IMG/VR virus record: IMGVR_UViG_3300045988_095709
Coordinates: 33,509-97,508 of that record
Origin: a virus
Length of the DNA: 64,000 bases
Reading direction: 5' to 3' (one strand)
Below, one piece after another: positions 23 through 56,760 of this stretch. Both the position numbers and the translations under genes were made by a program. A model generated the notes under the pieces. The model did not search any database. It was given only the letters and a program-made list of their open reading frames with translations, and was not told the origin of the DNA. Position 1 is the first letter of the stretch, and every line of letters starts with the position of its first letter.

Positions 23-64
23 GTGTATAGGGGATAGTTGAACGCTATTCCCTATACGCGTTTT
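23..64 (+). terminator. Stem-loop plus short T-run, probably the intrinsic terminator of the gene ending just upstream of the window
   Basis: GTGTATAGGGGATAG (23-37) pairs with CTATTCCCTATACGC (45-59) around a 7-nt loop, giving 15 bp including two G.U pairs. It is followed by G-TTTT (60-64) and lies in the non-coding gap before the first gene. Confidence 0.5.
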
Positions 65-8965: not shown

Positions 8966-9040
8966 ATGGCATGTGGAAACAAAAAGAGCTCATCTAAGAA
9001 GTCTTCTGGAAGCAAGACTAGCTCTGGAAAAAAGAAGTAA
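8966..9040 (+). CDS. 24-codon Lys/Ser-rich micro-ORF (MACGNKKSSSKKSSGSKTSSGKKK)
   Basis: It runs from ATG 8966 to TAA 9038-9040 in the 102-nt gap between the portal gene and the next gene. Six of its 8 Lys codons are AAG, the codon choice of the MCP-type high-expression genes and unlike the AAA-rich bulk of the block. Confidence 0.35.
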   Translation: MACGNKKSSSKKSSGSKTSSGKKK

Positions 9041-9042
9041 TT

Positions 9043-10485
9043 ATGAAAAAACCTAAAAGAAGGGGATATGTTCCTAGTAGAAATGTAAGGAATCATATCT
9101 ACAAATGGGAAGCTTCAGATATAAAAGCTCAAAATAAAAAATTTGGTGGAGACGCTATAAAAGCAAAAGCTGCAGAATTTAATGCTATGTTAGGAGATTA
9201 TGCTACTAGAATAGGATAGAATACTGCAGACGCTTTATTCTCTACTTATTATAATATTTCTCCTAATACATTTAAAGAACGAATACTCCCTTCTGTAATA
9301 GATTACGCTAAAAATTCTACTAAAGAGAATTATAATAAAGTACACGATATAATGATGAATCGTTATACGTGGGCTGATAAAAAATATCAACGTGGAATAA
9401 AAAAAAGAGCTGCAGCAGATGCGGCTTTATCGAAACCTATAATAGAAATAAACTACGATGACGTAGTTAATGACGCATTAGAACAACCTATAGATGTGTT
9501 AAGAGTTGAAACTCCTAAAATAATAAAACCTATAAAAATAAAAAGTACTCCTATAATACAATAGGAGCAAGAACAAGCTCCTATTTATTTATAGAAACCA
9601 GAAATATTACCTAATATAATAGACACTTGGAATAACGTACAAAAAGGAAATACATTATAGATTCCTCAATTTAAAGATGGTAAAGATTCTATAATTTTAG
9701 ATACTATAAATTATAATAAATATAAAGAAAGTTTACCTAAAAATTTAAGATCAGACAATATAGATTATAATTTATACGAAGCGTATAAAATAAATATGAA
9801 ACCAGAATTGTAGGAAGACGGAACATATCATTTAGGAAGTAGAAATCCGTATAATGGAAAAATATTGAAATCAACATTTCATCCTACTTTTAGTAAAGCT
9901 ATATACGAAGATATGAAGATGGGATATTATCCGCAATACAATAACGGAGATATATATACTCAAAAAATATTTTAGTATGAAGATGGTAAAGATTCTTTAT
10001 GGAATGAATATTCTAAATTTAACGACAGTGCTTTAAGTATACCAGTTAAGTTTTTAGATCCTACTGGAATATCTTCGTGGAAAGACGCATATGATGCGTG
10101 GACTAGTGAAAATTTAAACATTCCAGATGCTATATTTGAAACTGTAGGAGCAATACCTCTTATAGGAAAAATAGCAAAAATAGGAAAAGCTGCAAAATTA
10201 TTATCTAAAGATAAATAGTTATTTAAAACTCAAGATTATATATTAAGAGGTATAGGTACTTCTCATGATGTACAACAGCAGATAAAAAAGCACAATAACG
10301 GTAAAGATTCTGGAATACATATTAAAAAAGCAAATGTTGGTAAATTCACAAATGCTGCAAAACAACATGGAATGAGTGTTCAACAGTTTGCAAATAAGGT
10401 ACTAAAAGCGCCAAAAGGAAAGTATAGTTCAACACTTAGAAAAAGAGCAAATTTCGCAAGAAATGCTAAAAACTTTAATCATTAA
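9043..10485 (+). CDS. Hypothetical virion-module protein (480 codons)
   Basis: I read frame 1 line by line from ATG 9043 to TAA 10483-10485 and found 7 in-frame TAG. The motif (K/E/N)-(D)-G-K-D-S occurs three times (9673, 9979, 10297). The C-terminal tail is basic (...GKFTNAAKQHGMSVQQFANKVL...RKRANFARNAKNFNH). Confidence 0.7.
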
Positions 10486-11694: not shown

Positions 11695-11722
11695 TGAACA
11701 TATTTAAAAAATCAATTAAAAT

Positions 11723-13243
11723 ATGAATACACTTTTAAACAATCTTCAACTTTATAGAGGACGTCGTTTCTCTGATCTGGTTGATGAAAACATGATTTCA
11801 AACGCACTATTAACAAAGCCTCATGAGGTTTCAGGTCTTCTTTCTCTTGTATTTGGTACAAAGGATGACGGAGTATCTACAGCTATTGACTTGATTACTG
11901 GAGGTCTTGGTAAAACAATGATTATCGAAAACCGCGAATATGAGTGGTCAGTAATGATCGACAGCGACCATGCGGTTAACATTCGTTATGCTAAGTATAA
12001 CGGAAAGGAGCTTACAGATTCAGATATCGATACAGTAACTCCTGGTATTAATGGTTCTCCTATTTATATAGGTCTCGAGGAGAAGTGGTTTGGACCTGGT
12101 GCAATTCTCTCATTCGACGATTATAATTTTCAGGTTCGTGTTAACGGAAAGCCCTATCAGGATGGAAGCACATGGGTATACGAGTGCTACGTTGCAGACG
12201 GATTTGCAAGCTCATATATTCCTGTTGAGTATCTTCTTCCTGGAAGACAGGTTAGCCGTATTGGTAGCGCATACGAAGAGTATAGCGACGAGGCAGATAT
12301 CATAAACTATCAGACACCGTTTAAGATGCGTAACAATCTTAACACACTCCGTCTGTCTTATGATATTACAGGTGACGCTTATTCTACAGTATTGGCTATC
12401 GCTCTGAAGGATCCTGAGACAGGTAAGACATCTTATCTGTGGGCAGATTACCAGTATTGGTTGGCTCTTCGTCAGTGGAAGAAGCGTGAGGAGACAATGC
12501 TTCTGTTCTCTCACTCTAACAGAAATGCTGACGGTACATACGCACTCAAGGGAACTAACGGACGTGTTGTTCCAATTAGCGCTGGTCTGTTTGAGCAGGT
12601 TTCTCCGGCAAATATTCGTTATTACACAACACTGACTGCAGAATTGCTCGAGGATTATCTGTTCGATCTCACATACAATCTTCTCGGAACACAGGAGCGC
12701 AAGTTTATGGCTCTTACTGGTGAGATGGGTATTCGTGAATTCGATCGCGTACTTCGCGAAAAGGCTGCTGGATTCCAGCTTATTGATACGAAATTTATTA
12801 CTGGCTCAGGTCAGGAATTGACACTCGGTGGTCAGTTTACAACATATAAGATGACAAACGGTATTGAGTTGACAGTTAAGCGTTGTGCTCTGTTCGACAA
12901 TATGGAACTGTTCCGTCAGCTCCATCCGATTTCTGGAAAACCGTTGATGTCATACACATTCTTGTTCGTAGATCTCGGACAGCGTGACGGACAGGCAAAC
13001 ATCGTTAAGGTTTGTCGTAAGGGTCGTGAGTTTGTACAGTGGGTTACTGGTGGTTCTGTAATTCCTAGCGGATATGCAAACAGCATCAATACTCTGCGTT
13101 CTAACTCTAGAGATGGTTATCAGGTTCACTTCCTCGGTGAATTCGGTATAATGCTTCGTAATCCTCTGTCTTGCGGTATTCTCTACTGCGATGCTGAAGA
13201 TACAGATATACGTAACGAGGGTAATGCTAACGTAACAGCGTAA
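11723..13243 (+). CDS. Major capsid protein (506 aa)
   Basis: This is an uninterrupted standard-code ORF with no TAG. It follows the scaffold-like gene and has a typical HK97-class MCP size. Its codon usage differs strongly from its neighbours: it favours AAG, CGT, CTT/CTC and GGT, 16 of its 17 Gln codons are CAG, and one sampled 60-nt line (12541-12600) has 31 G+C. A hairpin follows the stop. Confidence 0.7.
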   Translation: MNTLLNNLQLYRGRRFSDLVDENMISNALLTKPHEVSGLLSLVFGTKDDGVSTAIDLITGGLGKTMIIENREYEWSVMIDSDHAVNIRYAKYNGKELTDSDIDTVTPGINGSPIYIGLEEKWFGPGAILSFDDYNFQVRVNGKPYQDGSTWVYECYVADGFASSYIPVEYLLPGRQVSRIGSAYEEYSDEADIINYQTPFKMRNNLNTLRLSYDITGDAYSTVLAIALKDPETGKTSYLWADYQYWLALRQWKKREETMLLFSHSNRNADGTYALKGTNGRVVPISAGLFEQVSPANIRYYTTLTAELLEDYLFDLTYNLLGTQERKFMALTGEMGIREFDRVLREKAAGFQLIDTKFITGSGQELTLGGQFTTYKMTNGIELTVKRCALFDNMELFRQLHPISGKPLMSYTFLFVDLGQRDGQANIVKVCRKGREFVQWVTGGSVIPSGYANSINTLRSNSRDGYQVHFLGEFGIMLRNPLSCGILYCDAEDTDIRNEGNANVTA

Positions 13244-13269
13244 TATTTGTTTAAATGATAATGTTCGAC

Positions 13270-13286
13270 AGGGGCGTAAAGCCCCT
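13270..13286 (+). terminator. Hairpin after the capsid gene
   Basis: AGGGGC (13270-13275) pairs with GCCCCT (13281-13286) around a GTAAA loop, 27 nt after the MCP stop. There is no clear T-run. Confidence 0.4.
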
Positions 13287-13323
13287 ATGCCGACATTGCA
13301 ACATACTAATTTAAAAATAAATT

Positions 13324-14076
13324 ATGGTAGTTGAATTAAAGATTAAGAAGAAAAATCCCTGGGCTGGTTTGATAAAATATAAATCGTGTTTTGATTATAT
13401 AGCACCTTACTTTACCAGATCCGGGTCGATATATACAGGACTTACTCCTGAAGAAGAAAGAAGATTTGAAAAAGAGTTGGGGTATACAGAAGGAACATTA
13501 TCAAAAGAAAGTGACTTCTGGAAAACCTTTGTAGTAAAAGTTGGTGCCAGAGGTCTTTTGTTAGACGATCAGTATCCTAGATAGGAAATGATTATAAAGT
13601 TCTTAAGTAATCACAAGAGAGTAGCCACATCTTTAAACAAGTTGGATGCTGGAAAAGATTATCTTTTAATCAATAGACAGGCAGAAGCTATAGAGCAGAA
13701 TAGAATTAACAAACTTCGTAGAGATGCTATCAAAGAATTTGATAAGTTGTCTTTGGATCAGATGCGCAAATGTTTGCGTATTCTTGGTATCAAGTCTGAT
13801 AACTTATCTAACGAATTAGTAGAGTCTACTTTATTTAATATGGTAGATAAAAATCCTAAGTCGTTCTTTAACAAGTGGGTTAATAATAAACAGAAAGAAA
13901 CAGAATTCTTGCTCGAAGACGCTATTGCCAAAGGTATTATCAGAAAAGATAGAACTCAGTATTACTACGGATCTGAACTTATTGCTGATAGTCAGCAAGA
14001 TGCAATTTCTTATTTGGATGCTAAGAAAAATCAAGATTTGAAACTTTCGATAATGAATTAGATTTCAAATAAATAA
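13324..14076 (+). CDS. Hypothetical head-module protein (250 codons)
   Basis: It runs in frame 1 from ATG 13324 to TAA 14074-14076. The track ORFs 13324-13584 and 13588-14061 share this frame and are joined by TAG 13582-13584. A second TAG lies at 14059-14061. Confidence 0.7.
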
Positions 14077-14085
14077 TATTAAAAT

Positions 14086-14799
14086 ATGAAGCATAGTGAG
14101 ATTTATACAAAGTTTATGATATTGTACGACAAAGAAGAAACAATGTCGTCGTATCCTCCATTAACTGATTATGAAATCGCTACGCTGTTAAATAAAGCTT
14201 ATTTAGCATTAATTGCTTAGAAACTTACAGGAAACAATCCAAGACAGGTAGGTTTCGAAGCAGATATAAAAGCGATTGAAGATATAAGGCCGTTAATAAT
14301 TACGCAATCACTTACTTCAATCGAATCTTAGTAGGTTACCGCTAGTAATGAAATATAGTATAATACCCCTGACAACCCTAAGATGTTGTATTATATTCAA
14401 TCTAGTCTGTAGACAAACGACAATAAAGAATCTATAGACGATAAAAATCACAATATGATTCCTACGTTTTTGATTTCGCATGACGATTCAGAAAGATTTA
14501 AAAATTCAAATTACAATTTACCTTGGATAAAAAATCCAGTAGTGTATTTAGAAGGAGACGTTTTGCACGTATTATATGATTCTTACAAAATCAAAAACCC
14601 AGGAAATCTTATAATTACTTATATTAAAGAACCTATTAAGTTTGAAAAAGACGAAAATAATAATTCTGATAATCAGGTTTTTGAACTAAACGATAGTATG
14701 GCTGAAGAACTTATAAACTTAGCAATCATACTTTCGGCAGAAATAGTACAATCTCCTAGATTTACTAGTAAACTTCAAAGTAGACCATTAGAATCATGA
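14086..14799 (+). CDS. Hypothetical head-tail connector-region protein (237 codons)
   Basis: It runs in frame 1 from ATG 14086 to TGA 14797-14799 with 5 in-frame TAG. Its stop overlaps the next start (ATGA). Confidence 0.65.
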
Positions 14800-15542
14800 C
14801 AACAGAACAAACCAGATAGTTAGGTATAGAATTTGAAAGGAGATTACAACAAATATCTCCGGATTTTGAAATAACAAACAAATTAGATACCGATACTATA
14901 TATTCGTTTTTAAACGAGTATTAGTATAAATACATAAACGATTTATTTCTGTTGGAAGACCAAATAAATAATGGTTCAAAATCTGTAAACAAAATAAACG
15001 ATACTATTAAAAACTTAATAACACACAAGACAATATCTGTTCCAGATAGAAATCCAGATACAGATAAATATTGTGAAGTTTTTAAATTACCGAATGACTA
15101 TTATTTTTACATAAGATCTACTAGTATAATTGATAAACATTACAAAACTTCTCAAAAATTGGAGCATATGGTGTATGCCCCTAACGTTATGATAAAACAA
15201 TCAGAAGTAGCAAACGTTATCAATTCGTATTGTAATGATGGTGGTATCATAAGAAAACCATTAGTTGTATTAGAAAGTACGTAGAAAGGGTCTCCGTATA
15301 TAAAAGTGATACACGATAGATATACACATTTGGATGCTATCGATCTCGTTTATTGCAGATAGCCTTATAACTTTAACGTACTCAATTATGACGACGAAGA
15401 TAAGTCTGATGGTGCTACACATAGCTACTGTGAATTACCATATTCGTGTTTTAACGAATTGGTAGAAGGTGCTATACAATTATACATACAGTAGTATAAG
15501 TACGCGTTACAAAAATCAAATAAAACTGAATCGAAACAATGA
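14796..15542 (+). CDS. Hypothetical head-tail connector-region protein (248 codons)
   Basis: ATG 14796 overlaps the upstream TGA. The first TAG is at codon 8. The gene ends at TGA 15540-15542, which overlaps the next ATG 15539. Confidence 0.65.
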
Positions 15543-16234
15543 GATATATAGATATACTGGTTAATTACGAAAGAGAAATTAACAAATTAGATAGTACTAT
15601 AGATAAACCGTCTGTTGACGATTCTTTGTTTTGGTTAAATCAAGCAGTAGGAAAATTCATCAAACAACGCTTTAATGGTGATTTTATACATAAAACTTCT
15701 TACGAACAAACAGAAAAAAGAAGAGCAGATTTAATAAAACTATATAAAGAAAAAATATATAATAAACAAGATATAAAGTACGAAAACAAACAGCCTTTAT
15801 ATGATGAATATATTGTAGAATTTCCTGAAGATTTTTTATTTACTCTAAATGAAGACGTGATAATATCTGATAATAAAGGAAATAATACTATAGATACTTG
15901 TGTTTTTGAATGTACGCAAGATAGTTTTATGTATAGAATCAATAATAGTCTTACTGATTTTCATTATAGATTTCATAGAGCAAGACCTCTGAGAATCAGA
16001 AATACAGATGGTTGTAAATTATTAACAGACAAAAATTATAAAATATACTAGTATACGCTAGGATATTTAAAAAAACCAACAGAAATAACTCTTGAAAATC
16101 CTTTTATGGAATATGAGGATTTTGAAGATATAATAATGTCAGAAATAATAAAAATCGCCGCTCAGATGTATATAGAAAATACAAAAGACGAACGATATAA
16201 AACAATTTCTGAAGAAGTTAACACACAAGAATAA
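15539..16234 (+). CDS. Hypothetical head-tail connector-region protein (231 codons)
   Basis: It runs from ATG 15539 to TAA 16232-16234 with one TAG (16049-16051). It is the third gene of an ATGA-coupled trio. Confidence 0.65.
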
Positions 16235-16312
16235 TTTTAACGTGGAAAGCCCAGCTAGTTAGGTCTAGTATTAATATAAGAGGGTGAGTAGAAAAAATTA
16301 ATTTTAAAATAT

Positions 16313-17371
16313 ATGATAACATACGTAAACACAGTGCTTGTTGGAAAAGGAGCAAGCGCAATTGTAAGCACAGATACAGAACTCGTGCACGAAAGTAAAG
16401 ATCTTACCAACGCTGGTAAGTATGTAATAATGGATATCGATAACGGAAAGCTTTTGTCAGCAGATACTGCAAACACAGCAAATAGAATTAAGATCGGTAT
16501 CATTCGTCCTGAAAATACTGCTATTCATCTTTCTGATGGTACAGTTAAGTATCATGACGTAATCAAGTGGTCAAACATAATAAGCAAGGATTCTATCATT
16601 TCTATTAACAGCCTTAAGTATGGTGCTGAGAAGAATACTGAAGAGAAGGTTACTGTAGATTTTTCTAATGTAAACACTCAGGTTATGGCAGACTTCGCTA
16701 AGGGAGGAAAGAGAATCGTTCTTCGTATTACTTATAAGGATCTTCCTACTAGATATCGTAAGTGGACTGAGTCTTATGAGTATATTACAGCTCCTGAGGA
16801 TACTGCAGATACTATTGCAGAGAGTTTTGCTGCTCAGATTAACGGACAGTACAAGAGAGCTAGAGTTACAGCTTCTGCTGCTTCTGGAGTACTTACTCTT
16901 ACAGCAATGCCTTATACAGATGATGATTCTAACGATTCTATCAACTGGGCAGAGACTGTACGTTTCAGTGTAAACTGCTACTTTACAGATCCTACTGCTG
17001 CAGCATTTGCTTCTAAGAACAAGTATGCAATTCTCGGTCTTGAGATCGAAAAGACTCCTGGAAAGAGATATGCTGCTGACGCTAAGCTTGTACGTGATCG
17101 TGAAGCTAATGCTATGGGTTACGAAGGAATCCTTAACAAGGGATGCTGCACTTGGCCTATCATCAAGCCGGCAATGCAGGTAGATATTACTAAGAACTAC
17201 GATGCTATTACATTGGAGTTCGAAAGAATGTATCGTGCTGCAGACGATATTTTCCGTAAGACGAAGGAAAGTATTGAGATCTATGACGTTACTGGATCTT
17301 TGACAGACGTTGCTAAGGCTATTAAGAATTTCTCAGGAATGACTATAGCCGGAGACGATCTTACAGCGTAA
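16313..17371 (+). CDS. Abundant virion protein, candidate auxiliary capsid or decoration protein (352 aa)
   Basis: This ORF is uninterrupted and TAG-free. It has the same G/C-ending, AAG/ATC/CGT-rich codon style as the MCP. Its stop context, ACAGCGTAATATT, is identical to that of the MCP, and its own hairpin plus T-run follows. Confidence 0.55.
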   Translation: MITYVNTVLVGKGASAIVSTDTELVHESKDLTNAGKYVIMDIDNGKLLSADTANTANRIKIGIIRPENTAIHLSDGTVKYHDVIKWSNIISKDSIISINSLKYGAEKNTEEKVTVDFSNVNTQVMADFAKGGKRIVLRITYKDLPTRYRKWTESYEYITAPEDTADTIAESFAAQINGQYKRARVTASAASGVLTLTAMPYTDDDSNDSINWAETVRFSVNCYFTDPTAAAFASKNKYAILGLEIEKTPGKRYAADAKLVRDREANAMGYEGILNKGCCTWPIIKPAMQVDITKNYDAITLEFERMYRAADDIFRKTKESIEIYDVTGSLTDVAKAIKNFSGMTIAGDDLTA

Positions 17372-17401
17372 TATTAATTAATGTTTAATGTAGATGGGGT
17401 T

Positions 17402-17436
17402 GGGGTCTTTTGACCCCTATCCTATTTATTTTTTAA
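17402..17436 (+). terminator. Intrinsic terminator after 16313-17371
   Basis: GGGGTC (17402-17407) pairs with GACCCC (17412-17417) around a TTTT loop. A T-rich tract, CTATTTATTTTTT, follows. Confidence 0.55.
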
Positions 17437-17447
17437 TTACTATTGAT

Positions 17448-18689: not shown

Positions 18690-20486
18690 ATGGAATTTAA
18701 TGATAATGATGTAAAAGTATTTGGTAAAATTGTATCTATAGCTTCGGAAGGTAAAATTGCAGACACACAATAGATATACGATAGTACATTTGAAAATGGA
18801 GACTTTCAATCTAATATAAATAAAAAATTATTAGATAAAATATAGGAAATAAGTCAAACTGTAACTAAGATTCAGGAAAACATAGAAAAGATATAGGAAG
18901 AAGGAATAAAAACAACAAAGAATTATTTTTATACTTCTATAAACAAAGACGAAACTGCTTCTAGTTCAGAAAGAAATAAAAGATCTGTACCTCGTGCATC
19001 TATGTAGGCGATAGTTAATCACATTGATAGTCTAGAAAGGAAATATCCAAGTTAGTATATTTTTACAGGAGATTATATTGTAAACGAACACGCTACTACA
19101 AATGATGAAAATTATATACATTATGATAAAATGTATATATATCACTTTGACAATATGTATAGAATGTATCTTAGTACTTAGGAAATAACTTTCGACAGAT
19201 TATCAGAAACAGGAAAAGCTAAAGTAAATCTCAAAGGTATATCTTTTGAATGTGATTCTTCAAATATATAGGAAGAAACTACAACTTGGGTAAAAGAGGT
19301 TTATTTAGACGCAATAAGTGTAAACGAACGTATATAGTCAGAAGACGGTGATATGATGTATAAAAATATATATCGAGTACTTACTGACGATGGTACGTAT
19401 AAAAAAATAGAAGATATACTAGGTGTAGATATTATAAATAACGGAGAAGGAAATAAATTTTTATCTGATAATGGACAATATATAGAAATAAATTCAGGTG
19501 AAATAGAACCCTAGATTTTTACACTTACAGTATAGGCAGATCCTTCTGATTCTATTATAAAATTAAACGATATAGAACAAAACACCATAAGTGTCGAAAA
19601 AGGTTCTAAAGTAAAAATAGAAGTTTCTAAAGAAGGATACATTACTTATTATTAGAGTATAACTGTTAACGAAAATAAAGATTTACAAATCAAACTCACA
19701 AAAGAAAGTGAGATAGTGATAGATAAAGAAGAACTGAATATGAATGTATATAAAGTATGGTTAAAATCGTCTAGTGGAGATCTAGATGAATCTGCAAACG
19801 CTATTATTAAAGAATATTTGGACGAAATAAATACAGGAAATATGGCATTATTGTATATCACTCCTGCGTTTCCTCAGTCTGAACCTGGAATAAAAGATTA
19901 TTCTTTAGTTAATTTGTAGTTTTCAAGTACTAGCGGTTTTACCGGATTTGGTTTTTATAAAGATATAGAAACAAGTGATAATGTTGGATATTTTAAATAG
20001 TTTTCTATTAAAATAACAACAAATTCTGAAACATAGAAATATAAAATATCATATTATGGAGAAATTTCAATGGACGCCACAATATTGAACGGATATTCTA
20101 CTGTAAACATACCCAAATAGTATATTTGTGGTATAAATAAAAATGAAGATTCGTATACATTTAGCGGATTCAATAAATCAGAACTTATAGAATATATGGA
20201 TTCTGCTAAAAATCAGGAGGATATAAATATGTACGGACAATCTTACATAACAGTTAGTAGAATATATAACGATGATAGTTGGGAAGTACCTTACGATATA
20301 TATCCAGATATAATAGATAAATCGAAAATAGGTAGTACTGGTACGGTATTGCACGGAGTATCTAAAAATGCAGATACAAACGGTCACAGATTGGAATTGG
20401 AAATAAGCGGATCTACAGATGGAGGAGATGGATATACTATAACAAAATGTCAATATGTAGATCAGAACGGTCAACCGTTAAGTTAA
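18690..20486 (+). CDS. Fibre-like or receptor-binding protein (598 codons)
   Basis: I checked frame 0 line by line from ATG 18690 to TAA 20484-20486 and only TAG interrupts it. The N-terminus MEFNDNDVKVFGKIVSIASEGK... is paralogous to that of 20530-20751. Confidence 0.65.
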
Positions 20487-20529: not shown

Positions 20530-20751
20530 ATGGAAATCAAAGAAAACGACGTAAAAGTATTTGGTAGAGTCGTATCTATAGCTATCGACAATAAAGTTGC
20601 TAGTTCCGAACAAGTTTATGACGACACATTTGAAGATGGAATGTTTCAGTCGGAAATAAATAAGAAATTAGTATAGAAAATAGACGAAATATCTATTTCT
20701 GGAGGTGTCGAATCTATTAGTAACGACGAAATAGATCAAATTTGTATATAA
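20530..20751 (+). CDS. Short paralogue of the 18690 N-terminal module (73 codons)
   Basis: The sequence MEIKENDVKVFGRVVSIAIDNKVASSEQVYDDTFEDGMFQSEINKKL aligns with the start of 18690-20486. It ends ...SNDEIDQICI, resembling the C-terminus ...SNGDIDAICVD of 20754-21833. Confidence 0.55.
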
Positions 20752-20801
20752 TTATGAATTTTTTAGATAAAACAGGTCTCCAATATTTTTGGGGAAAAAT
20801 A
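20750..20801 (+). repeat. Conserved fibre-gene junction, copy 1
   Basis: AATTATGAATTTTTTAGATAA (20750-20770) and TATTTTTGGGGAAAAATA (20784-20801) are identical to 21843-21863 and 21877-21894. Confidence 0.8.
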
Positions 20802-21833
20802 AAGACATAGATAAATAATAGTTTCGCAGCAAACGATGCGATGACTTTTAAGGGTACAATTGGTACTGGAGGTACAGTAACAGCACTTCCTGCTACACAT
20901 AAAGTTGGAGATACATACAAAGTATCTACGGCAGGAACATATGCTGGAGCTAAGTGTGAAATAGGAGACATGATAATCTGTGTAAAAGATGGATCTTCTG
21001 ATACAGCTTCTGATTGGACAATCGTTCAGTCTAACATTGACGGAGCTGTCACAGGTCCTACTAGTTCTACAGATGCTCATGTTGCAGTATTTAATGGAGC
21101 CACAGGAAAGATAATAAAAGACAGTGGTTTTACTATAGCAAAATCTGTACCATCTAATGCAGTATTTACTGATACTACATATTCTGTAGCTACTACATCT
21201 AAAGACGGATTAATGTCTGCAGAAGACAAGAAAAAATTAGAAGGAATAACCGGTAGTGGAGATTATGTACTTCCGGCAGCTACTTCTACTACACTCGGTG
21301 GAGTTAAGATAGGAAGTAATATTAGTAACTCTTCTGGTACGATCAGTATTACTAAACAGAATGTTACAGACGCGTTAGGATATACTCCATTGCAGACAGC
21401 TAGTGATACTAAAGTTACTTAGAATACTCCTGTTTCTACTTCTGGTGATTTTAATATGTTAATGGCAAAAACTGCAGGAAACGTAGCTAATGAAACAAGC
21501 GATGTAAACAAAGCAAGAGCTTTCACATATAACCCAGGAACACAGTGTGTAAAAGTATCTAGATCAGACGAAGGATAGAATACTGATACTGTAATTCTAT
21601 CTAGTTAGAACGATTACGAATTGAAATTATCTCCTGCTGGAATAATAATGAATACTGGAGATACTCCTAGATTGACTATCGATTCAGACGGAGGTACGTT
21701 CGATAGTGAATTTACAATAACTGCTGTAAAATTTGTTAAGTCTGGAGGAACATCTTCTCAGCTTTTGGTTGCAGACGGATCTGTTGCAACTGCGATATCT
21801 AACGGAGACATAGACGCTATTTGCGTAGATTAA
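20754..21833 (+). CDS. Tail fibre protein (359 codons)
   Basis: It runs from ATG 20754 to TAA 21831-21833 with 4 TAG. The N-terminus is MNFLDKTGLQYFWGKI. It carries the fibre motifs KDGLMSAEDKKKLEGI and DYVLPAATSTTLGGVKIG (21261-21314), plus ...GGTSSQLLVADGS... Confidence 0.8.
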
Positions 21834-21842
21834 AAATATTAC

Positions 21843-21894
21843 AATTATGAATTTTTTAGATAAGACCGGACTTTAGTATTTTTGGGGAAAAATA
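21843..21894 (+). repeat. Conserved fibre-gene junction, copy 2
   Basis: It contains the same 21-mer and 18-mer as copy 1, spanning the start codon and first 16 codons of the next fibre gene. Confidence 0.8.
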
Positions 21895-22959
21895 CAAACA
21901 TATGTTTTAAATCAACTAGAAGCCATTCCTTTAGCTGGAAAATTTAATAACGGATTAATGTACGCTGGAGATAAATAGTTGATAGATAAATATAAATCCA
22001 TGTGGTAGGATATGTACGGATCTGGTGAAGACGGAAATATGCCATTAAAAAGTATAAACATATCATAGAGTGGTGGAAAATTAGTAATATAGAGCGGGTC
22101 GTAGGATTATTCTACAAGTACAAGTAATATAAAAGAAACAAAAAACATACCGACAGCGACAACATCCGCAGACGGAGCTATGAGTTCTTCTGATAAATAG
22201 ACACTTGATAATTTAAATTCTAAATTATAGGATATAGATTTTAGTAAATATTTTAAAGAAGGAAATATATATACTACTGATGACGAAAGTGTATCTTTAG
22301 ATTTATAGTATCTTAGAGATGTAAAAATATGGTCTTATTCTGGAGGAGAGCAAAAAGCAGCTATATTGGGACATTTTCATTCTGATGTTCCCGGAAGTAA
22401 ATTTTCCGTAATATATTAGGACGATACAGCAAATTCCGGACATCCTTTGGTGATAGAAACAATTCCTTATTTTGGAATATTGCTAGGAATGTCTGAAGGA
22501 ACTAGTGTTGGTTATTATACAGCAACAAGAGGAACATATTCTACATACATAGGAAGAGGTAATGTTTCGGTATGCGATTCTTAGAGTTCTACAGGAATAT
22601 TAACAGGAAAAAGAGTACAACTCACTTCAAAAGGATATCGTCCTGTTGATAAATAGGGATCTGTAACAATAGACGACACGTGGGCTAAAAATAATATGAA
22701 CAATATAGCTACTTGTGATGCCACTATGGTTGACGCAAAAGTCATAGATATAGATTACGATCATAAAATAGCTACAGTTAGAATAACGATACAAGATACA
22801 GAGGGGTAGTTTTTTTACGTTAAGACTGGAGGAATCGTAATAGGAGGAACAGCATCTTCAGCGGTAAACGGAGAATATTATGCTAACGTTGTATTATAGG
22901 TTCCGTACGATAGTAGTGGAAAAGTTTCGTTATACGATAAATACGCAATAACTTGGTAA
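21847..22959 (+). CDS. Tail fibre protein, paralogous N-terminus (370 codons)
   Basis: I read frame 1 line by line from ATG 21847 to TAA 22957-22959. It has 14 in-frame TAG, so no standard-code ORF of 60 aa or more appears here in the track. The N-terminus is MNFLDKTGL(TAG)YFWGKI, and it has two (A/S)xDK-x-(L/T)(I/L)D motifs. Confidence 0.75.
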
Positions 22960-26582: not shown

Positions 26583-26762
26583 AAGATAATTCTTAAATAT
26601 TCAAAAAATTTAATTTTTTATTGAAAAAAGTGACATTTTTTTGAAACCACTCATGTGGGGTTTATACGTTATATATAAGTAATTACATATATTTTTCGTG
26701 CGCACACGAGATTTTTATTTATAACTAACCTATTTTTAATTTATTTTTATTTATTTATTCTT
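26583..26762 (+). promoter_or_regulatory. Largest intergenic region of the block; probable promoter or regulatory region for 26763-27551
   Basis: This 180-nt AT-rich non-coding stretch contains a hairpin AAACCAC-TCAT-GTGGGGTTT (~26643-26663) and a GC-rich palindrome GTGCGCAC (26698-26705). I could not identify a clean Bacteroidetes-type -33/-7 promoter. Confidence 0.3.
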
Positions 26763-27551
26763 ATGGAAGATAAAATCACAGAAAAAGTTTATTGTTATGA
26801 CCATCCTAGCGCTTATAACAACAATAACGCTTGGGAGGCTATGGCTCTTATGAATGGTGGATCAAATTGGTAGAATAACCCATTCATTTATTTAGTATGG
26901 ATGATGTTTGCTAATCGTATGTGGGGAGGAGAAAGAGATTGTGCAGGAAATGCTCAGTATATGGCTCTTCAGAACCAGATTAGCGATAACCAGAATGCGA
27001 ATTTGGTAATGGACGGTATTAAGGGAACTACCGATGCCGTTCGTCAGTTAGCAGCTAATCTAAATTGCGATTTCAATACTTTGAATTCTGCAATTTGCGA
27101 CGTACGCTCTGGCATACAGCAAGTGGCTGGACAAATCGGTTTCAGCTCCGAAAGAGTAATCAATGCTGTGAATATGGGCGATTGCAATGTTATTCAGGCT
27201 ATCCAGAACTGCTGCTGCCAAACACAGCAGAGTATCTTAAAGATGGGATACGAGAATCAACTTGCAAATTGCAATCAGACGAATGTTCTCTCTAATGCTA
27301 TACAAGGTGTAAACGTAGGATTAGAGCGCGGTTTCTCTGCAGTTGCGTATGAGACCCAGAAACAGACGTGTGACTTGCTTAACGCCGGAAATTCTAATAC
27401 ACAAAGAATAATTGATGTATTGAATAACCATTGGAATAGTGAGTTGCAGCAGAAGTATGATGATGTAAGAACAGAACTTTCTCAGTACAGACAGAGTGCT
27501 TATCTGATCTCTCAATTGAAGCCCACTTCAACTACTACTGCGGCTGCGTAA
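26763..27551 (+). CDS. Cys/Gln/Asn-rich repeat protein of unknown function, probably highly expressed (262 codons)
   Basis: It runs from ATG 26763 (alternative ATG 26901) to TAA 27549-27551 with a single TAG at 26871-26873. Codon usage is the CAG/AAG/CGT-rich style of the MCP. A hydrophobic N-terminal segment (PFIYLVWMMFANRMW) is followed by about four helical Cys-containing repeats (NCDFNTLNSAICD / GDCNVIQAIQNCCC / ANCNQTNVLSNAI / QTCDLLNAGNSN). Confidence 0.7.
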
Positions 27552-27577
27552 TTTAAAATTTTAAAATACGTGCAATG

Positions 27578-27604
27578 AAGGGAGTGGAAACACTCCCTTT
27601 TTTG
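27578..27604 (+). terminator. Canonical intrinsic terminator
   Basis: AAGGGAGTG (27578-27586) pairs with CACTCCCTT (27591-27599) around a GAAA tetraloop, and the T-run continues to 27603. Confidence 0.8.
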
Positions 27605-27626
27605 TTATTATACAATTTGAAAGATT

Positions 27627-28142: not shown

Positions 28143-28620
28143 AATAGATAAGATGTCGGCTTACATAAGCGAAGACATCAACGAAAAATAGATACAAAAA
28201 TCTATAATACAAAAATTAATAACCGAAGCAAACAAATACGATAGAGAGTTTGTAGATAGGATGTATGAATACTACGACGGAATGAAGTAGTATAATAATT
28301 ATTTAACAGAAGACGAAGCTTCTTAGATACTGAGTAATTTTGTAAATTACGATGGTACAAAAGGAGCTATGTTTAAAAATTCAATGTGGTTGTTTAACAG
28401 ACTTGCTGAATAGAATTTACATTGTGAATGCGCTCCTAATTATAACAAATGGGCATTATATGTTACTATGAATAAATTCGCTTCAGATCAGGGAAATGTT
28501 ATAAATAAGTGGATAGGAGAAGATAAAGATAAATTTATAATTGCTTGTTATGATTTATCTACTGCTCAACTCTCAGATGCAGACAGACCGCATTGGGTTA
28601 GATCTTATTTTAATTTATAA
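28120..28620 (+). CDS. Hypothetical protein (166 codons)
   Basis: I read frame 1 line by line from ATG 28120 to TAA 28618-28620 and found 4 TAG. Confidence 0.6.
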
Positions 28621-28621
28621 T

Positions 28622-29056
28622 ATGATATTTTAGGCAGATGATACATTAATATAGGCAATATGTAATTTTGAAGGTTTAAGAACCACAGCTTATAAATGTC
28701 CGGCTGGTGTTTATACTATAGGGTATGGACACACAAAAGGAGTAAAAAAAGGACAAAAAATAACTAAACAACAGTCTGTGGAATATTTATACTAGGATTT
28801 ATAGCCTATTGTGGACTACCTAAACAGTATAAATGTGTGTAGAACACAAGGTTAGTTTGATGCCCTTGCCGATTTCATATTTAATTTAGGTACTTCTGCA
28901 TTCAAAAGATCTACGTTATATAAATACATAAAAAATAGATATTCCGACGACGCTATATGTAATCAAATAATGAGGTGGGTATATGCCGGAGGAAAAAAAT
29001 TAAACGGTTTAATAAAACGTAGATAGTGGGAATGCGATATGTGGAAATCAAAATAA
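28622..29056 (+). CDS. Endolysin, GH24 (phage lysozyme / muramidase) family
   Basis: It runs from ATG 28622 to TAA 29054-29056. The translation ...FEGLRTTAYKCPAGVYTIGYGHT...(Q)FDALADFIFNLGTSAF...WVYAGGKKLNGLIKRR.. matches the GH24 signature (E-G ... TIGYGHT ... Q-F/Y-DAL ... G-L-x-x-RR). It has 6 in-frame TAG in 144 codons, including codons 4 and 11. Confidence 0.9.
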
Positions 29057-29060
29057 CACT

Positions 29061-29585
29061 ATGAACATATTAGCATCTATTGGAAATACATTTAATACGA
29101 TAAGCAACGGTACAGAAATAGGAAAATTAGCTGTTGCTGCATCGGCTATATTAGTCGCATATATATCTCCAATAGTTGGATTGTTAATCGCCTGTTTTGC
29201 ATGTTCTATCACAGACATGATTTATGGAATCAAAGTAGCAAAACGGCTAGGAAAGAAAATCACTAGTAAAAAGAACTGGAAAGGAACTCTTACTAAAATA
29301 AAAGACGAATTTACTTTAATACTATTGGCACACCTATTAGAGTATGTAATAGGATATGGTGATAATTTCATACTATCTGGAGGTATAGCTGTGATTATAT
29401 GTTTGACTGAAATACTTTCTATATTGGAAAATCTAAACACACTAAACCCAGAAGGACCGTGGAAACTGATAAGTAAATTCTTAAAGAAAAAGGGTTCTGA
29501 CATAATGGATATAGATGACAATATAATTTAGCAAAATGATGACGATAATAAATTGGTTAATAAACAACAAAAGAATCGCCATTGA
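29061..29585 (+). CDS. Holin (multi-TM; phage_holin_4-like SILENL motif)
   Basis: The 156-aa standard-code ORF 29061-29531 has three or more hydrophobic segments and TEILSILENLNTLNPEGP. It lies directly after the endolysin. Its first stop is TAG 29529-29531. If that is decoded, 18 charged codons (QQNDDDNKLVNKQQKNRH) are added up to TGA 29583-29585. Confidence 0.6.
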
Positions 29586-30183
29586 TGCCATTCTTTGCGC
29601 CTGTGCTGCGTTATTTCTCGGTTATGGTATAATTATGCATAATCAAAATAAAAAGCTCTCAGAAAGCCTAGAAATGGCTAATAATAACATAGAGGCCTAT
29701 TAGGGTGTTATTTCAGCATCCTAGTAGGCCAATAATGTTTTAAAGCTATAGATGGCTGATTTGAAACAATATAATGATGAAGCTATAAATAAATTAGATA
29801 GCGTAAGAGAAGAATATAAAATAAATGCTAAAGATTTAAACACCGCTGCAACTTAGACTCAAACTATAGACGTTAATAAGAGTAAGGGGGTAGGGGGTTA
29901 GATTGTTGTAGTAAATGATACTATATATAAAGATAGTATATAGTACAACGATCTTACTAAAGTATTTTATACTATAGGAAAAGATAGTGTAAATATAAGA
30001 TTAGATTTTAAAAATACTTAGTATTTATATATTTATAAAAAGAAAGAATATAAAAATAAGAAAAATTTTTTCCAACGCTTATTTACTTTAGATTTCAAAA
30101 AAGTAACTAGATATAAATATAGAATAATAAACACAAACAATTTGATTAAAGAAGATAGCGTTAGAGTAATAGAACAGAGTTGA
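29536..30183 (+). CDS. Spanin-like protein (N-terminal TM plus coiled coil), the third gene of the lysis cassette
   Basis: I read frame 1 line by line from ATG 29536 to TGA 30181-30183 and found 8 TAG. The TM segment AIDAILCACAALFLGYGIIM is followed by a helical region. The function is inferred from position and topology only. Confidence 0.4.
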
Positions 30184-55600: not shown

Positions 55601-56760
55601 TGTATAGACTTGCTGCTTACGGTACTAAAACGTTATCTGACGGTAAACAGGTATCTTATCCTGTATATATACTTTTAAATCCTAAAGGTCAGAGAGTTAA
55701 AATAGGTGCTCAAAATTATGATTTCTATTCTGTAGGAAGAGACGATAATTATCAGCACGATTTCTTAAAAGGTGAAACTCCAAACTTCTTAGAAAAAGTA
55801 AAATGGATATAGAAAAACATAGAAAAAATACAGGAGTTGAGAGCAGCTAAAACAGCAACAGTAGGAGACGTGAGATAGTTGTTCGACATACCGGCAGGAG
55901 ATAGTTATTCTATACAAACGTTCGGAAATATATAGAGAACAGTATATCAAAATGAAAAATACGGAAATATAGGAGAAGCTGAAATACAACACGACTAGTT
56001 ACAATTAGAGCTCGGACCATATGGTGAATGGGAAATAAAAGGCGATAATACTTCTAAATTTGATACAAACAAAGCATTAGATACATACACATTGCATTCT
56101 GGTGGAGCAAAAGGTTCAGACTCTTACTGGGGAACAGCAGGAGAGAAATACGGCTTATTGTACGACGATAAACACCAAAGACACTATTATCACCAAGAAA
56201 AAACTCCTGTAGGAAATGTAGAAATATCTAATTAGGATTACGAAGAAGGAAGATACAAGGCAGCATAGGCTGCTTCAGCAAGATGGGGATATAACTTGAA
56301 AACAATGAAAGATAATAGATTGATTAGAAATTGGGCTCAGGTTAAATATTCAGATGCAATATTTGCAATAGGAACTCTTGTTAAACCCGGACAACCGATA
56401 GATCCAAACAACAATAAAGAAACAAGAATTGCTAAGAAAGTAATAGTTTCTGGAGGTACCGGATATGCTGTAGAGATGGCTATACAAGCTGGTAAACCTG
56501 TATACGTATTCGATTAGAGGAGAAACAGATGGTATAAGAACATAGACGGAAAATGGTCTAAATCAGATATTCCTGTACTTACTAAAAATTTCGCAGGTAT
56601 CGGAACTAGAGAGTTATAGGATAACGGAAAATAGGCTATAGAAGACGTATATAAAAAGACTATAGAATAGATGTAGAAGAACTCTACTAATTAGGATATC
56701 GATATCAATATAGAAGATTTCAGTAATCTAAACGAATAGAGACATGAACAATGTGATTAA
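40642..56760 (+). CDS. Giant multidomain virion protein (5372 codons) containing an RNA-polymerase-type DxDxD motif
   Basis: I read frame 1 codon by codon across every gap between 25 same-frame track ORFs, from ATG 40642 to TAA 56758-56760. TAG was the only stop. The last upstream in-frame stop is TAA 40609-40611. Embedded signatures are annotated separately below. Confidence 0.8.
45304..45930 (+). other. PD-(D/E)XK (RecB/Cas4-type) nuclease domain inside the giant protein
   Basis: The sequence ...GETDMLAVDTDGSVYLIDFKTSK... (D-F-K at 45736-45744) is followed by ...RTQFTLYSMM..., which fits the QxxxY motif typical of RecB-family nucleases. Confidence 0.55.
48100..48310 (+). other. Candidate zincin metallopeptidase motif inside the giant protein
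   Basis: HESFH (48175-48189) fits HExxH. It is followed 35 residues later by EALAD, which fits the ExxxD third-ligand motif of gluzincins. Confidence 0.4.
52972..54054 (+). other. Putative catalytic region of a crAss-type virion RNA polymerase
   Basis: The motif ..TKITGSDFDIDKLY.. places DFDID at 53296-53310. This DxDxD metal-binding motif is analogous to NADFDGD of multisubunit RNAP beta-prime, and lies within a very large virion-module protein as in crAss-like phages. Confidence 0.55.
56092..56514 (+). other. SLOG / DprA / DUF2493-like Rossmannoid domain at the C-terminus of the giant protein
   Basis: The signatures are LHSGGAKGSDSYWG ... NRLIRNWAQVKYSDAIFAIG ... VSGGTGYAVEMAIQAGKPVYVFD. 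These fit the GGAxGxD and GGTxxxxxxA..GKPV pattern. Confidence 0.45.

What the first reader, a model, noticed from the sequence alone, without database searches (positions are those of the whole stretch)
11723..17371. TAG-free islands with a second codon dialect (CAG, AAG, CGT, G/C-ending) inside the recoded block
Three genes use a codon style strikingly different from their neighbours: the MCP (11723-13243, 506 codons, 0 TAG), the 352-codon protein (16313-17371, 0 TAG) and the Cys-rich protein (26763-27551, 1 TAG). The micro-ORF 8966-9040 shares the style. In the MCP, 16 of 17 Gln codons are CAG, Lys is mostly AAG and Arg is CGT. One sampled 60-nt line has 31 G+C (12541-12600) against 15 in a neighbouring gene (15781-15840). 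Each larger island is followed by its own hairpin. The MCP and 16313 gene also share an identical stop context, ACAGCGTAATATT. The most abundant proteins therefore seem tuned to host-preferred codons and avoid dependence on TAG suppression. This implies that suppression is limiting or costly.
Basis: seen in the sequence. Interest (0 to 1): 0.75.

Follow-up and report, generated by a model that had tools for sequence, protein, structure and literature searches.

The report
Host-tuned codons in capsid shell genes
In this gut crAss-like phage that reads TAG as glutamine, the two proteins that build the capsid shell (plus one unknown protein) are written in the codons favoured by highly expressed genes of its likely Bacteroidales host and almost never use TAG, a clear but expected case of selection for efficient translation of the most abundant proteins.

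Summary
The window is a TAG-to-Gln recoded crAss-like phage (Suoliviridae/Oafivirinae). Three genes are extreme outliers in synonymous codon use: the major capsid protein (MCP, 11723-13243), the 352-codon protein (16313-17371) and the Cys-rich protein (26763-27551). G-test p values are 4e-70, 3e-31 and 7e-9.

The shift is codon-specific, not simply G/C-ending. AAG, CAG, GAG, CGT, ATT/ATC, CTN and GGT replace AAA, CAA, TAG, AGA, ATA, TTA and GGA.

It matches tuf and ribosomal-protein genes of Bacteroidales, best a Prevotella genome. Codon adaptation index (CAI) is 0.59, 0.59 and 0.46, against 0.32±0.03 for the other 30 genes. The excess survives control for amino-acid sequence and GC3.

The 352-codon protein is the auxiliary capsid protein (ΦcrAss001 gp36 fold), present 1:1 with MCP. 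The dialect, the downstream hairpins and a TAA-T stop recur in 56-81 orthologs, so horizontal acquisition is rejected.

Extra avoidance of TAG beyond CAA is significant only for MCP. It is not conserved in the Cys-rich gene.

A 5372-codon ORF carries 104 TAGs, so suppression cannot be grossly inefficient.

This is translational selection on abundant virion proteins, a known principle, and a TAG-free MCP has already been noted in a 2026 preprint. The micro-ORF and the shared 13-mer are not conserved.

The parts
11723..13243 (+). Major capsid protein gene (ΦcrAss001 gp32 family), written in the host-adapted codon dialect with 0 TAG.
   Evidence: PDB 7qof_A E 2e-36 and phrog_11589 E 5e-127. Codon counts. 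G = 452, p = 4e-70. CAI 0.595. 81 orthologs pooled: CAA 92, CAG 1203, TAG 6.
13256..13300 (+). Hairpin after the MCP stop codon. The core is GGGGC-GTAAA-GCCCC at 13271-13285, with no clear T-run. Likely a terminator or 3' mRNA stabiliser.
   Evidence: Sequence. MFE is -17.6 kcal/mol for the 80 nt after the stop. In 80 orthologs the mean is -22.5, against -7 to -17 for other gene families (MWU p = 9e-37).
16313..17371 (+). Auxiliary capsid protein gene (ΦcrAss001 gp36-like), written in the host-adapted dialect with 0 TAG.
   Evidence: AF2 model pLDDT 77.5. Foldseek 7qof_a E 2.3e-11, TM 0.56-0.59. Profile hit to 'Auxiliary capsid protein gp36', E 0.0019. Synteny with gp31-gp36. G = 249, p = 3e-31. 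CAI 0.592.
17396..17435 (+). GC-rich hairpin (17396-17417) followed by a T-rich run: an intrinsic-terminator-like site after the auxiliary capsid gene.
   Evidence: MFE -28.2, the strongest in the window. In 56 orthologs the mean is -23.0 (MWU p = 1e-24).
26763..27551 (+). Cys-, Asn- and Gln-rich, predicted all-helical protein of unknown function (phrog_16490). It has an intermediate host-adapted dialect and 1 TAG (codon 37).
   Evidence: G = 116, p = 7e-9; CAI 0.456; z = 4.3. The AF2 model is poor (pLDDT 48). PDB hits are only coiled-coil-like. Homologues across crAss-like phages carry only weak name-level annotations.
27577..27610 (+). Classic intrinsic-terminator-like hairpin plus T-run after the Cys-rich gene.
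   Evidence: 10-bp stem, then TTTTGTTATT. MFE -22.4.
26694..26711 (+). Terminator-like hairpin inside the 328-nt gap upstream of the Cys-rich gene. It isolates that gene as its own transcription unit.
   Evidence: gap seen.
13324..14076 (+). 250-aa gene in the position of ΦcrAss001 gp33, with a weaker version of the same dialect.
   Evidence: Window: Q 2/7/2 (CAA/CAG/TAG), K 19/11 (AAA/AAG). 76 orthologs pooled: TAG 0.08, AAG 0.63, CGY 0.64. CAI 0.373, z = 4.1 after the GC3 control.
20754..21833 (+). Head-fibre protein gene (Pfam Phage_head_fibr), fourth-highest host CAI. Its excess is explained by amino-acid content and GC3, so it is not part of the dialect proper.
   Evidence: Pfam E 4e-11. 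CAI 0.401. z = 0.2 after the GC3 control.
8966..9040 (+). Micro-ORF claimed to share the style. Not supported as a conserved gene.
   Evidence: 24 codons, G-test p = 0.02 uncorrected. No blastn or tblastn counterpart in 85 related loci. Relatives have no gap after the portal gene.

Best explanation
The islands are genes under strong translational selection.

The phage genome is AT-rich (32% GC). Most of its late genes drift to AAA, CAA, TAG, AGA, ATA and TTA. The two proteins that form the T=9 capsid shell are needed in roughly 500 copies each per virion. These are MCP and the gp36-type auxiliary capsid protein. Their genes have been driven to the codons read by the most abundant tRNAs of the Bacteroidales host: AAG, CAG, GAG, CGU, AUY, CUN, AAC, UUC, UGC and GGU.

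UAG must be read by a phage suppressor tRNA(CUA) in competition with release factor 1. It therefore behaves as the least favoured glutamine codon and is purged along with CAA. In MCP it is purged somewhat more strongly.

The same genes carry other marks of high-output cassettes:
- their own intergenic spacers;
- a stable 3' hairpin (terminator or mRNA stabiliser);
- the strong UAA-U stop signal;
- in MCP, an AT-rich first dozen codons.

The Cys-rich gene shows a weaker form of the same signature, so it is predicted to be highly expressed too.

Shown here: the codon statistics, the match to host highly expressed genes, protein identities, conservation and hairpins. Inferred: actual expression levels, the selective cause, and the role of RF1 competition.
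For: - The three genes are the top synonymous-usage outliers.
- The shift is codon-specific, not compositional.
- RSCU of MCP plus the auxiliary capsid gene correlates with tuf+rplKAJL of Prevotella (r = 0.78), Phocaeicola (0.74) and Bacteroidaceae (0.63). The other phage genes give r = 0 to 0.37.
- CAI z-scores are 9.0, 8.9 and 4.5. They remain 17, 9.4 and 4.3 after fixing amino acids and GC3 class.
- Published optimal codons for Bacteroides and Parabacteroides include CAG, AAG, TGC, AAC, ATC, TTC and AGC. Most other low-GC bacteria prefer CAA and AAA (Hershberg & Petrov 2009 supplement).
- The 352-codon protein is gp36-like. gp32 and gp36 are equimolar shell components (PMC10172136).
- There is a graded series across ortholog families: MCP, then the auxiliary protein, then the gp33-like gene, then the gp31-like gene and portal, then the rest.
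- The dialect is conserved in 81 and 57 orthologs. For the auxiliary protein this holds at ~48% amino-acid identity.
- Downstream hairpins are conserved. TAA followed by T occurs in 88-97% of these genes against 57% overall.
- The relative cr130_1 encodes tRNAs Sup-CUA, Gln-UUG and Leu-UAA. These read exactly the codons the shell genes avoid.
- Bias of phage head and tail genes towards host-preferred codons is established (Lucks et al. 2008, PMC2266997).
Against: - There are no expression or proteomic data for this phage.
- The host is not identified. The reference sets are single genomes picked through an EF-Tu search, so 'best match Prevotella' is only indicative.
- The function and abundance of the Cys-rich protein are unknown.
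- The head-fibre gene, also a capsid component, shows no GC3-independent adaptation.
- ΦcrAss001 MCP and gp36 avoid ATA and prefer AAG, but they use AGA and CAA. The dialect is therefore lineage- and tRNA-pool-specific rather than universal.
- Pooled ortholog counts are not phylogenetically independent.
Confidence: 0.8

Rival explanations
1. Regulatory code-independence. The shell genes are kept TAG-free so that they can be translated before, or without, the phage's switch to the TAG=Gln code. The codon dialect would be secondary.
For: - 59 of 63 MCP orthologs in recoded relatives have no TAG.
- TAG is depleted about 9-fold more than CAA in MCP, and 6 against 26 by alignment columns.
- The recoding-as-timer model exists in the literature (Borges et al. 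preprint).
Against: - The other proteins needed for procapsid assembly carry TAGs. Portal has 16 and the gp31-like gene has 2 in the window. TAG-free MCP alone would therefore not give early assembly.
- The auxiliary capsid gene avoids TAG no more than CAA.
- The dialect affects about 12 amino acids, not just Gln.
- It persists in relatives with little TAG use.
Confidence: 0.08
2. mRNA-level selection rather than tRNA matching. The higher G+C gives more stable or less RNase-sensitive transcripts for abundant messages. The codon match to the host is incidental.
For: - G+C is raised at all three codon positions in the islands.
- Each island has a conserved stable 3' hairpin.
Against: - A large part of the shift is between A/T-ending synonyms: AGA to CGT, ATA to ATT, TTA to CTT, GGA to GGT.
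- GAC, TAC, CAC, GCC, ACC and GTC do not rise.
- Host CAI stays 17 and 9 SD above a null that preserves each site's GC3 class.
Confidence: 0.07
3. The islands are horizontally acquired or mosaic segments from a higher-GC phage or host.
For: Local G+C is 0.40-0.43 against 0.32 for the window. Phage genomes are mosaic in general.
Against: - The gp31-to-gp36 gene order is conserved as far as ΦcrAss001.
- The dialect is present in all 81 and 57 orthologs examined.
- MCP is the best-conserved protein, at 82-90% identity.
- The auxiliary protein keeps the dialect at ~48% identity.
- The shift is codon-specific and stops at ORF boundaries.
- There are no mobile-element features.
Confidence: 0.02

Closest known systems
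Host-preferred codon bias of phage head and tail genes (Lucks, Nelson, Kudla & Plotkin 2008, PMC2266997)
   Same: Structural genes stand out from the rest of the phage genome in host CAI, beyond what GC3 explains.
   Different: [quoted passage not shown] Here the host is a Bacteroidales member and the genome is TAG-recoded. The signal is concentrated in the two shell genes rather than in all structural genes; terminase, portal and tail genes are ordinary.
TAG-free MCP noted in an amber-reassigned Crassvirales genome (bioRxiv 10.64898/2026.08.21.746148)
   Same: It reports that the MCP gene shows no alternative codon use inside a recoded genome, and invokes host translational bias on capsid genes.
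   Different: That is a single-genome remark in a different family. It does not quantify the dialect, test against host genes, include the auxiliary capsid protein, or compare TAG with CAA across orthologs.
Gene-family enrichment or depletion of recoded stops (Borges et al., bioRxiv 10.1101/2021.08.26.457843)
   Same: The same class of phages is studied. Spanin and lysozyme/amidase families prefer TAG. The window's spanin-like gene 29536-30183 has 8 TAG of 13 Gln and its endolysin has 6 of 13. The authors state that selection enriches or depletes stops per family.
   Different: Their emphasis is on TAG-preferring lysis genes as a timer. Depletion was tested for integrases of other clades, and capsid genes are not discussed in the preprint text (0 occurrences of 'capsid').
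ΦcrAss001 gp32/gp36 capsid shell (Bayfield et al. 2023, PMC10172136)
   Same: The proteins are homologous, the gene order is the same, and the pair is equimolar.
   Different: ΦcrAss001 uses the standard code and carries at least 23 tRNAs. Its MCP and gp36 avoid ATA and favour AAG, but they use AGA exclusively and mostly CAA.

Membership tests
Translationally selected, host-codon-adapted highly expressed phage genes | Synonymous codon usage differs significantly from the rest of the genome. | tested here: met
   G-test p = 4e-70, 3e-31 and 7e-9.
Translationally selected, host-codon-adapted highly expressed phage genes | The deviation points towards the codon usage of the host's highly expressed genes. 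| tested here: met
   RSCU r up to 0.78 and CAI z up to 9 against Bacteroidales tuf+rplKAJL. The host itself is not identified, so reference genomes stand in for it.
Translationally selected, host-codon-adapted highly expressed phage genes | The signal is not explained by amino-acid content or GC3. | tested here: met
   Randomisation that keeps amino acids and site-wise GC3 class gives z = 17.1, 9.4 and 4.3.
Translationally selected, host-codon-adapted highly expressed phage genes | The gene products are the most abundant. | tested here: inconclusive
   Met by homology for MCP and the auxiliary capsid protein (9 + 9 per asymmetric unit in ΦcrAss001). Unknown for the Cys-rich protein. Nothing was measured for this phage.
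Translationally selected, host-codon-adapted highly expressed phage genes | The bias is maintained by selection across relatives. | tested here: met
   81 MCP and 57 auxiliary-protein orthologs share it, the latter at ~48% amino-acid identity.
Translationally selected, host-codon-adapted highly expressed phage genes | High translation measured directly. | not testable with these tools
   No transcriptome, ribosome profiling or proteome is available for this phage.
crAss-like major capsid protein (gp32 / phrog_11589) | Sequence homology over the full length. | tested here: met
   7qof_A E 2.3e-36 over residues 67-481. phrog_11589 E 5e-127 over residues 1-489.
crAss-like auxiliary capsid protein (gp36) | The gp36 fold (PH-like plus FD domains) and a position downstream of the MCP gene. 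| tested here: met
   Foldseek 7qof_a E 2.3e-11, prob 1.00, TM 0.56-0.59. Profile E 0.0019 to gp36 residues 230-321. Synteny. Model pLDDT is only 77.5 and sequence identity 16%.
TAG-to-Gln (code 15) recoded phage | Coding density collapses under the standard code and is restored when TAG is read as sense. | tested here: met
   24-26 kb coded under the standard code against 61-63 kb with TAG as sense.
TAG-to-Gln (code 15) recoded phage | A phage-encoded suppressor tRNA(CUA). | tested here: inconclusive
   None in the 64-kb window. Present in the relatives cr130_1 and cr124_1 upstream of the late block, which would lie outside the window.
Horizontally acquired compositional island | A uniform compositional shift, phylogenetic discordance, or absence from relatives. 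| tested here: not met
   The shift is codon-specific, the dialect is present in all orthologs, and synteny is conserved.

The most novel reading that the evidence does not exclude
In the major capsid gene, TAG is under extra purifying selection beyond that on ordinary non-optimal codons. Two reasons are possible. RF1-terminated, truncated shell subunits could poison capsid assembly. Alternatively, the shell gene may need to be readable in both codes. If so, the gradient of TAG use across gene families (MCP 0.5%, auxiliary capsid 4%, portal 16%, bulk ~32%, spanin 55%) would be a comparative-genomic read-out of the in vivo cost of suppression.
Probability: 0.15. Interest if true: 0.5.

Novelty: new member of a known kind. 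Interest (0 to 1): 0.3.

Why it matters
- It gives a clean, quantified example showing that a reassigned stop codon behaves like any other synonymous codon under translational selection. It is least used where expression is highest and most used in lysis genes.
- It bounds how costly suppression can be. A 104-TAG ORF must still be completed.
- It explains why MCP, and here also the auxiliary capsid gene, stay intact under standard-code gene calling in recoded phages.
- It suggests that the codon dialect of the two shell genes alone carries a host signal that the bulk genome lacks. Here that signal is Prevotella/Bacteroidaceae-like.
- It flags the uncharacterised Cys-rich protein family as probably highly expressed.

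Tried and rejected
- Sequence search of the 352-codon protein against PDB found nothing useful. PHROGs gave only spurious weak hits. Its identity came from structure prediction plus Foldseek and a profile search.
- The Cys-rich protein could not be identified. The AF2 model was too poor to search (pLDDT 48). The profile hit only coronavirus-spike HR1-type coiled coils. Pfam gave nothing above threshold. Annotated phage records carry only weak name-level labels.
An exact 38-mer from the window start found nothing in metagenome contigs.
- The Bohxovirus record (L005) looks fragmented under every code. It was used only qualitatively.
- Correlations of ortholog identities between genes are weak, because the identities span a narrow range. 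They do not decide for or against gene exchange.
- The shared 13-mer stop context and the micro-ORF were checked in relatives and are not conserved.
- PHROG annotation of neighbouring genes was mostly uninformative.

Full report
**What the window is.** With TAG read as sense, 33-38 plus-strand ORFs cover 61-63 kb of the 64 kb. Under the standard code only 24-26 kb is covered. G+C is 32%. The nearest annotated relatives are crAss-like phages of Suoliviridae/Oafivirinae (cr130_1, cr124_1, cr272_1, cr7_1, Dulem virus 42), at about 70% nucleotide identity across the capsid region. The window holds no tRNA gene. The relatives cr130_1 and cr124_1 carry a tRNA with anticodon CUA upstream of the late block, at a position that would fall just outside the window.

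**Checking the observation.**
- Codon counts:

| Gene | CAA/CAG/TAG | AAA/AAG | Arg codons |
|---|---|---|---|
| MCP | 1/16/0 | 3/18 | CGT 20, CGC 4, AGA 4 |
| 352-codon gene | 0/4/0 | 2/26 | CGT 8, AGA 7 |
| Cys-rich gene | 7/17/1 | 3/4 | CGT 2, CGC 2, AGA 5 |

- The two sampled 60-nt lines have 31 and 15 G+C. ACAGCGTAATATT occurs only at the two stop codons.
- In the remaining genes AAA far exceeds AAG and AGA far exceeds CGT. Gln is split CAA 47%, TAG 32%, CAG 21%.
- A G-test of each gene's synonymous usage against the rest makes the three genes the top outliers among genes over 100 codons. G per codon is 0.90, 0.71 and 0.45, with p = 4e-70, 3e-31 and 7e-9.
- With a background TAG share of 0.32, TAG-freeness is significant for MCP (P about 0.0014) and the Cys-rich gene (P about 8e-4). 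It is not significant for the 352-codon gene alone, which has only 4 Gln codons.
- The stated span 11723-17371 is two separate islands, with four ordinary or intermediate genes between them.

**What the dialect is.**
- It is not a plain G/C shift. AAG, CAG, GAG, CGT, ATT/ATC, CTT/CTC/CTG, AAC, TTC, TGC, AGC and GGT go up. AAA, CAA, TAG, AGA, ATA, TTA and GGA go down.
- GAC/GAT, TAC/TAT, CAC/CAT, GCC, ACC and GTC are unchanged.
- Several of the largest changes are between A/T-ending synonyms. A compositional or horizontal-transfer origin would not produce that.

**Host test.**
The best hit was 92% identical, in Phocaeicola.
- I took tuf plus rplK, rplA, rplJ and rplL as highly expressed reference sets.
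- RSCU of MCP plus the 352-codon gene correlates at r = 0.78 with a Prevotella set, 0.74 with Phocaeicola and 0.63 with a Bacteroidaceae MAG. The other phage genes give r = 0.00, 0.37 and 0.02.
- The match extends to details. Leu is CTT > CTC > CTG ≈ TTG. CCT, GCT, GTT and CGT are preferred. Tyr stays TAT in both phage and host sets.
- CAI against the Prevotella set is 0.595, 0.592 and 0.456 for the three islands. The other 30 genes average 0.319±0.031 (z = 9.0, 8.9, 4.5).
- A randomisation that keeps each gene's amino-acid sequence and the G/C-or-A/T class of every third position leaves z = 17.1, 9.4 and 4.3. Portal, terminase and the head-fibre gene sit at about 0.
- The Hershberg & Petrov (2009) table lists CAG, AAG, TGC, AAC, ATC, TTC and AGC as optimal in Bacteroides and Parabacteroides. 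Most other low-GC bacteria prefer CAA and AAA.
- The host of this phage is not identified, so 'Prevotella-like' is only indicative.

**What the proteins are.**
- MCP is a clear gp32 homologue.
- The 352-codon protein had no sequence-level PDB hit. An AlphaFold model built on 22 homologues (pLDDT 77.5) matches chain a of the ΦcrAss001 capsid (E 2.3e-11, TM 0.56-0.59). A profile of the family hits the same chain, named 'Auxiliary capsid protein gp36' (E 0.0019). The gene order gp31-MCP-gp33-...-gp36 is shared with ΦcrAss001.
- In ΦcrAss001 the T=9 asymmetric unit holds nine gp32 and nine gp36 (PMC10172136). The two strongest islands therefore encode the two equimolar, most abundant virion proteins.
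- The Cys-rich protein could not be identified. It is predicted to be all-helical with low confidence. It gives only coiled-coil-type similarities. It belongs to a family spread through crAss-like phages that has only nominal annotations.

**Conservation.**

Eighty IMG/VR loci with MCP orthologs at 82-90% identity, plus five GenBank relatives, were gene-called with TAG as sense and assigned to window genes by BLASTP. Pooled counts:

| Gene family | Orthologs | CAA/CAG/TAG or TAG share | AAG | CGY | ATA |
|---|---|---|---|---|---|
| MCP | 81 | 92/1203/6 | 0.85 | 0.94 | 0.03 |
| Auxiliary capsid | 57 | 42/445/20 | 0.81 | 0.90 | 0.07 |
| gp33-like | 76 | TAG 0.08 | 0.63 | 0.64 | 0.16 |
| gp31-like | 76 | TAG 0.07 | 0.42 | 0.46 | 0.25 |
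| Portal | 52 | TAG 0.16 | 0.54 | 0.43 | 0.42 |
| Terminase and most others | - | TAG 0.2-0.37 | - | - | - |
| Spanin-like | 28 | TAG 0.55 | 0.45 | 0.29 | 0.67 |

- This is a graded series, not a binary split.
- The auxiliary protein averages only 48% amino-acid identity to the window's copy, yet keeps the dialect. The dialect is therefore continually maintained rather than inherited as a frozen block.
- The dialect also persists in relatives that use little TAG.

**Is TAG specially avoided?**
- In 63 clearly recoded relatives, MCP has CAA 80, CAG 924 and TAG 4, and 59 MCPs have no TAG.
- Among non-CAG Gln codons the TAG share is 0.05 in MCP, 0.33 in the auxiliary gene and 0.42 in background.
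- Counting alignment columns instead of cells reduces phylogenetic inflation. MCP then has 26 columns with CAA and 6 with TAG. Terminase has 79 and 69, and portal 161 and 112 (Fisher p = 0.005 and 0.02). The auxiliary gene has 27 and 13, which is not significant.
- The Cys-rich ortholog of cr124_1 has 7 TAGs.
- Extra TAG avoidance is therefore modest and is demonstrable only for MCP.
- ORF 40642-56760 has 104 in-frame TAGs. Ten percent full-length product requires at least 97.8% read-through per TAG.
- Suppression therefore cannot be grossly limiting. A small per-codon cost multiplied by very high expression is enough to explain the pattern.

**Accessory features.**
- The 80 nt after the stop codon fold to -17.6, -28.2 and -22.4 kcal/mol for the three islands. 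The folds after the auxiliary and Cys-rich genes are the two most stable in the window; the MCP fold (-17.6) ranks fourth, behind the stretch after 29536-30183 (-18.1).
- Across relatives the means are -22.5 (MCP, n = 80) and -23.0 (auxiliary, n = 56), against -7 to -17 for other families (p = 9e-37 and 1e-24).
- The sites after the auxiliary and Cys-rich genes fit an intrinsic-terminator pattern.
- The identical 13-mer is not conserved in orthologs. TAA followed by T is: 88-97% for MCP, auxiliary and gp33-like genes, against 57% of all ORFs.
- In MCP, the only CAA, one of two TTA and one of four AGA lie in the first 12 codons (p = 0.007). This is consistent with an AT-rich, low-structure 5' end.
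- The micro-ORF has no counterpart in any related locus.

**Comparison across lineages.**
- ΦcrAss001 uses the standard code and has at least 23 tRNAs, including Arg-UCU, Gln-UUG and Ile-UAU. It also sets MCP and gp36 apart: ATA is 0 of 22 and 0 of 25, and AAG is preferred. But it uses AGA exclusively and mostly CAA.
- cr130_1 carries only Sup-CUA, Gln-UUG and Leu-UAA. These read TAG, CAA and TTA, the codons that the shell genes avoid.
- This fits a picture in which bulk late genes lean on phage-supplied tRNAs, while the shell genes use the host's abundant tRNAs. That step is inference.

**Prior knowledge and verdict.**
- Bias of phage head and tail genes towards host-preferred codons is established (Lucks et al. 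2008).
- Yutin et al. 2021 noted a Zeta-group MCP without reassigned stops.
- Borges et al. described family-specific enrichment and depletion of recoded stops, with spanin and lysozyme families enriched. The window's spanin-like gene and endolysin fit this.
- A 2026 preprint states that the MCP of an amber-recoded crassvirus shows no alternative codon use, and invokes host translational bias.
- The finding is therefore a well-documented new instance of a known principle. This analysis adds several details:
  - the auxiliary capsid protein shares the signature;
  - the graded series across gene families;
  - the GC3-independent match to Bacteroidales highly expressed genes;
  - the conserved 3' hairpins and TAA-T stops;
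  - the bound on suppression efficiency.

Noticed in passing
window 40642-56760: A single 5372-codon ORF with 104 in-frame TAG codons, the counterpart of the giant gp79 of cr130_1. Its completion requires very efficient TAG read-through.
   Followed up: partly
window 20754-21833 and 21847-22959; also 18690-20486 and 20530-20751: Two pairs of adjacent genes share nearly identical N-termini (MNFLDKTGLQYFWGKI... and ME..NDVKVFG...) but have different C-terminal parts. The first of the MNFLDK pair has a Pfam head-fibre domain. The second uses TAG for 14 of 19 Gln codons, far above the 32% background.
   Followed up: partly
window 28550-29056 and 29536-30183: The endolysin (phrog_7) and a spanin-like gene with an N-terminal transmembrane segment are TAG-rich, at 6 of 13 and 8 of 13 Gln codons. 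Spanin-like orthologs pool to 55% TAG. This matches the TAG-preferring lysis families of Borges et al.
   Followed up: partly
window 27-57: A perfect GC-containing hairpin (TATAGGGGATAG ... CTATTCCCTATA) sits in the non-coding stretch at the very start of the window, before the first ORF.
   Followed up: no
window 9560-9585: A terminator-like hairpin plus T-run lies inside the ORF called at 9043-10485. That ORF has the lowest GC3 in the region (0.15) and no PHROG match, so it may be mis-called or composite.
   Followed up: no
window 11695-11722 and 16235-16312: The leaders of MCP and the auxiliary capsid gene end in similar A-rich strings (AAAAAATCAATTAAAAT-ATG and AAAAAATTAATTTTAAAATAT-ATG) without a Shine-Dalgarno motif. 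This would be expected for Bacteroidota-type initiation.
   Followed up: no
window 17388-17446: The ORF after the auxiliary capsid gene was called mechanically from 17388. The terminator hairpin (17396-17417) lies inside that extension, so the real start is probably the ATG near 17446.
   Followed up: no
L003 7563-10835 (Dulem virus 42) and several cr* genomes: MCP genes of many relatives are split by HNH, GIY-YIG or LAGLIDADG endonuclease inserts (group I introns). The window's MCP is uninterrupted.
   Followed up: no
L167 22001-22391 (cr130_1): A tmRNA-like gene with tag peptide DNYNVVDYTHVA is predicted in the early region of this recoded relative.
   Followed up: no
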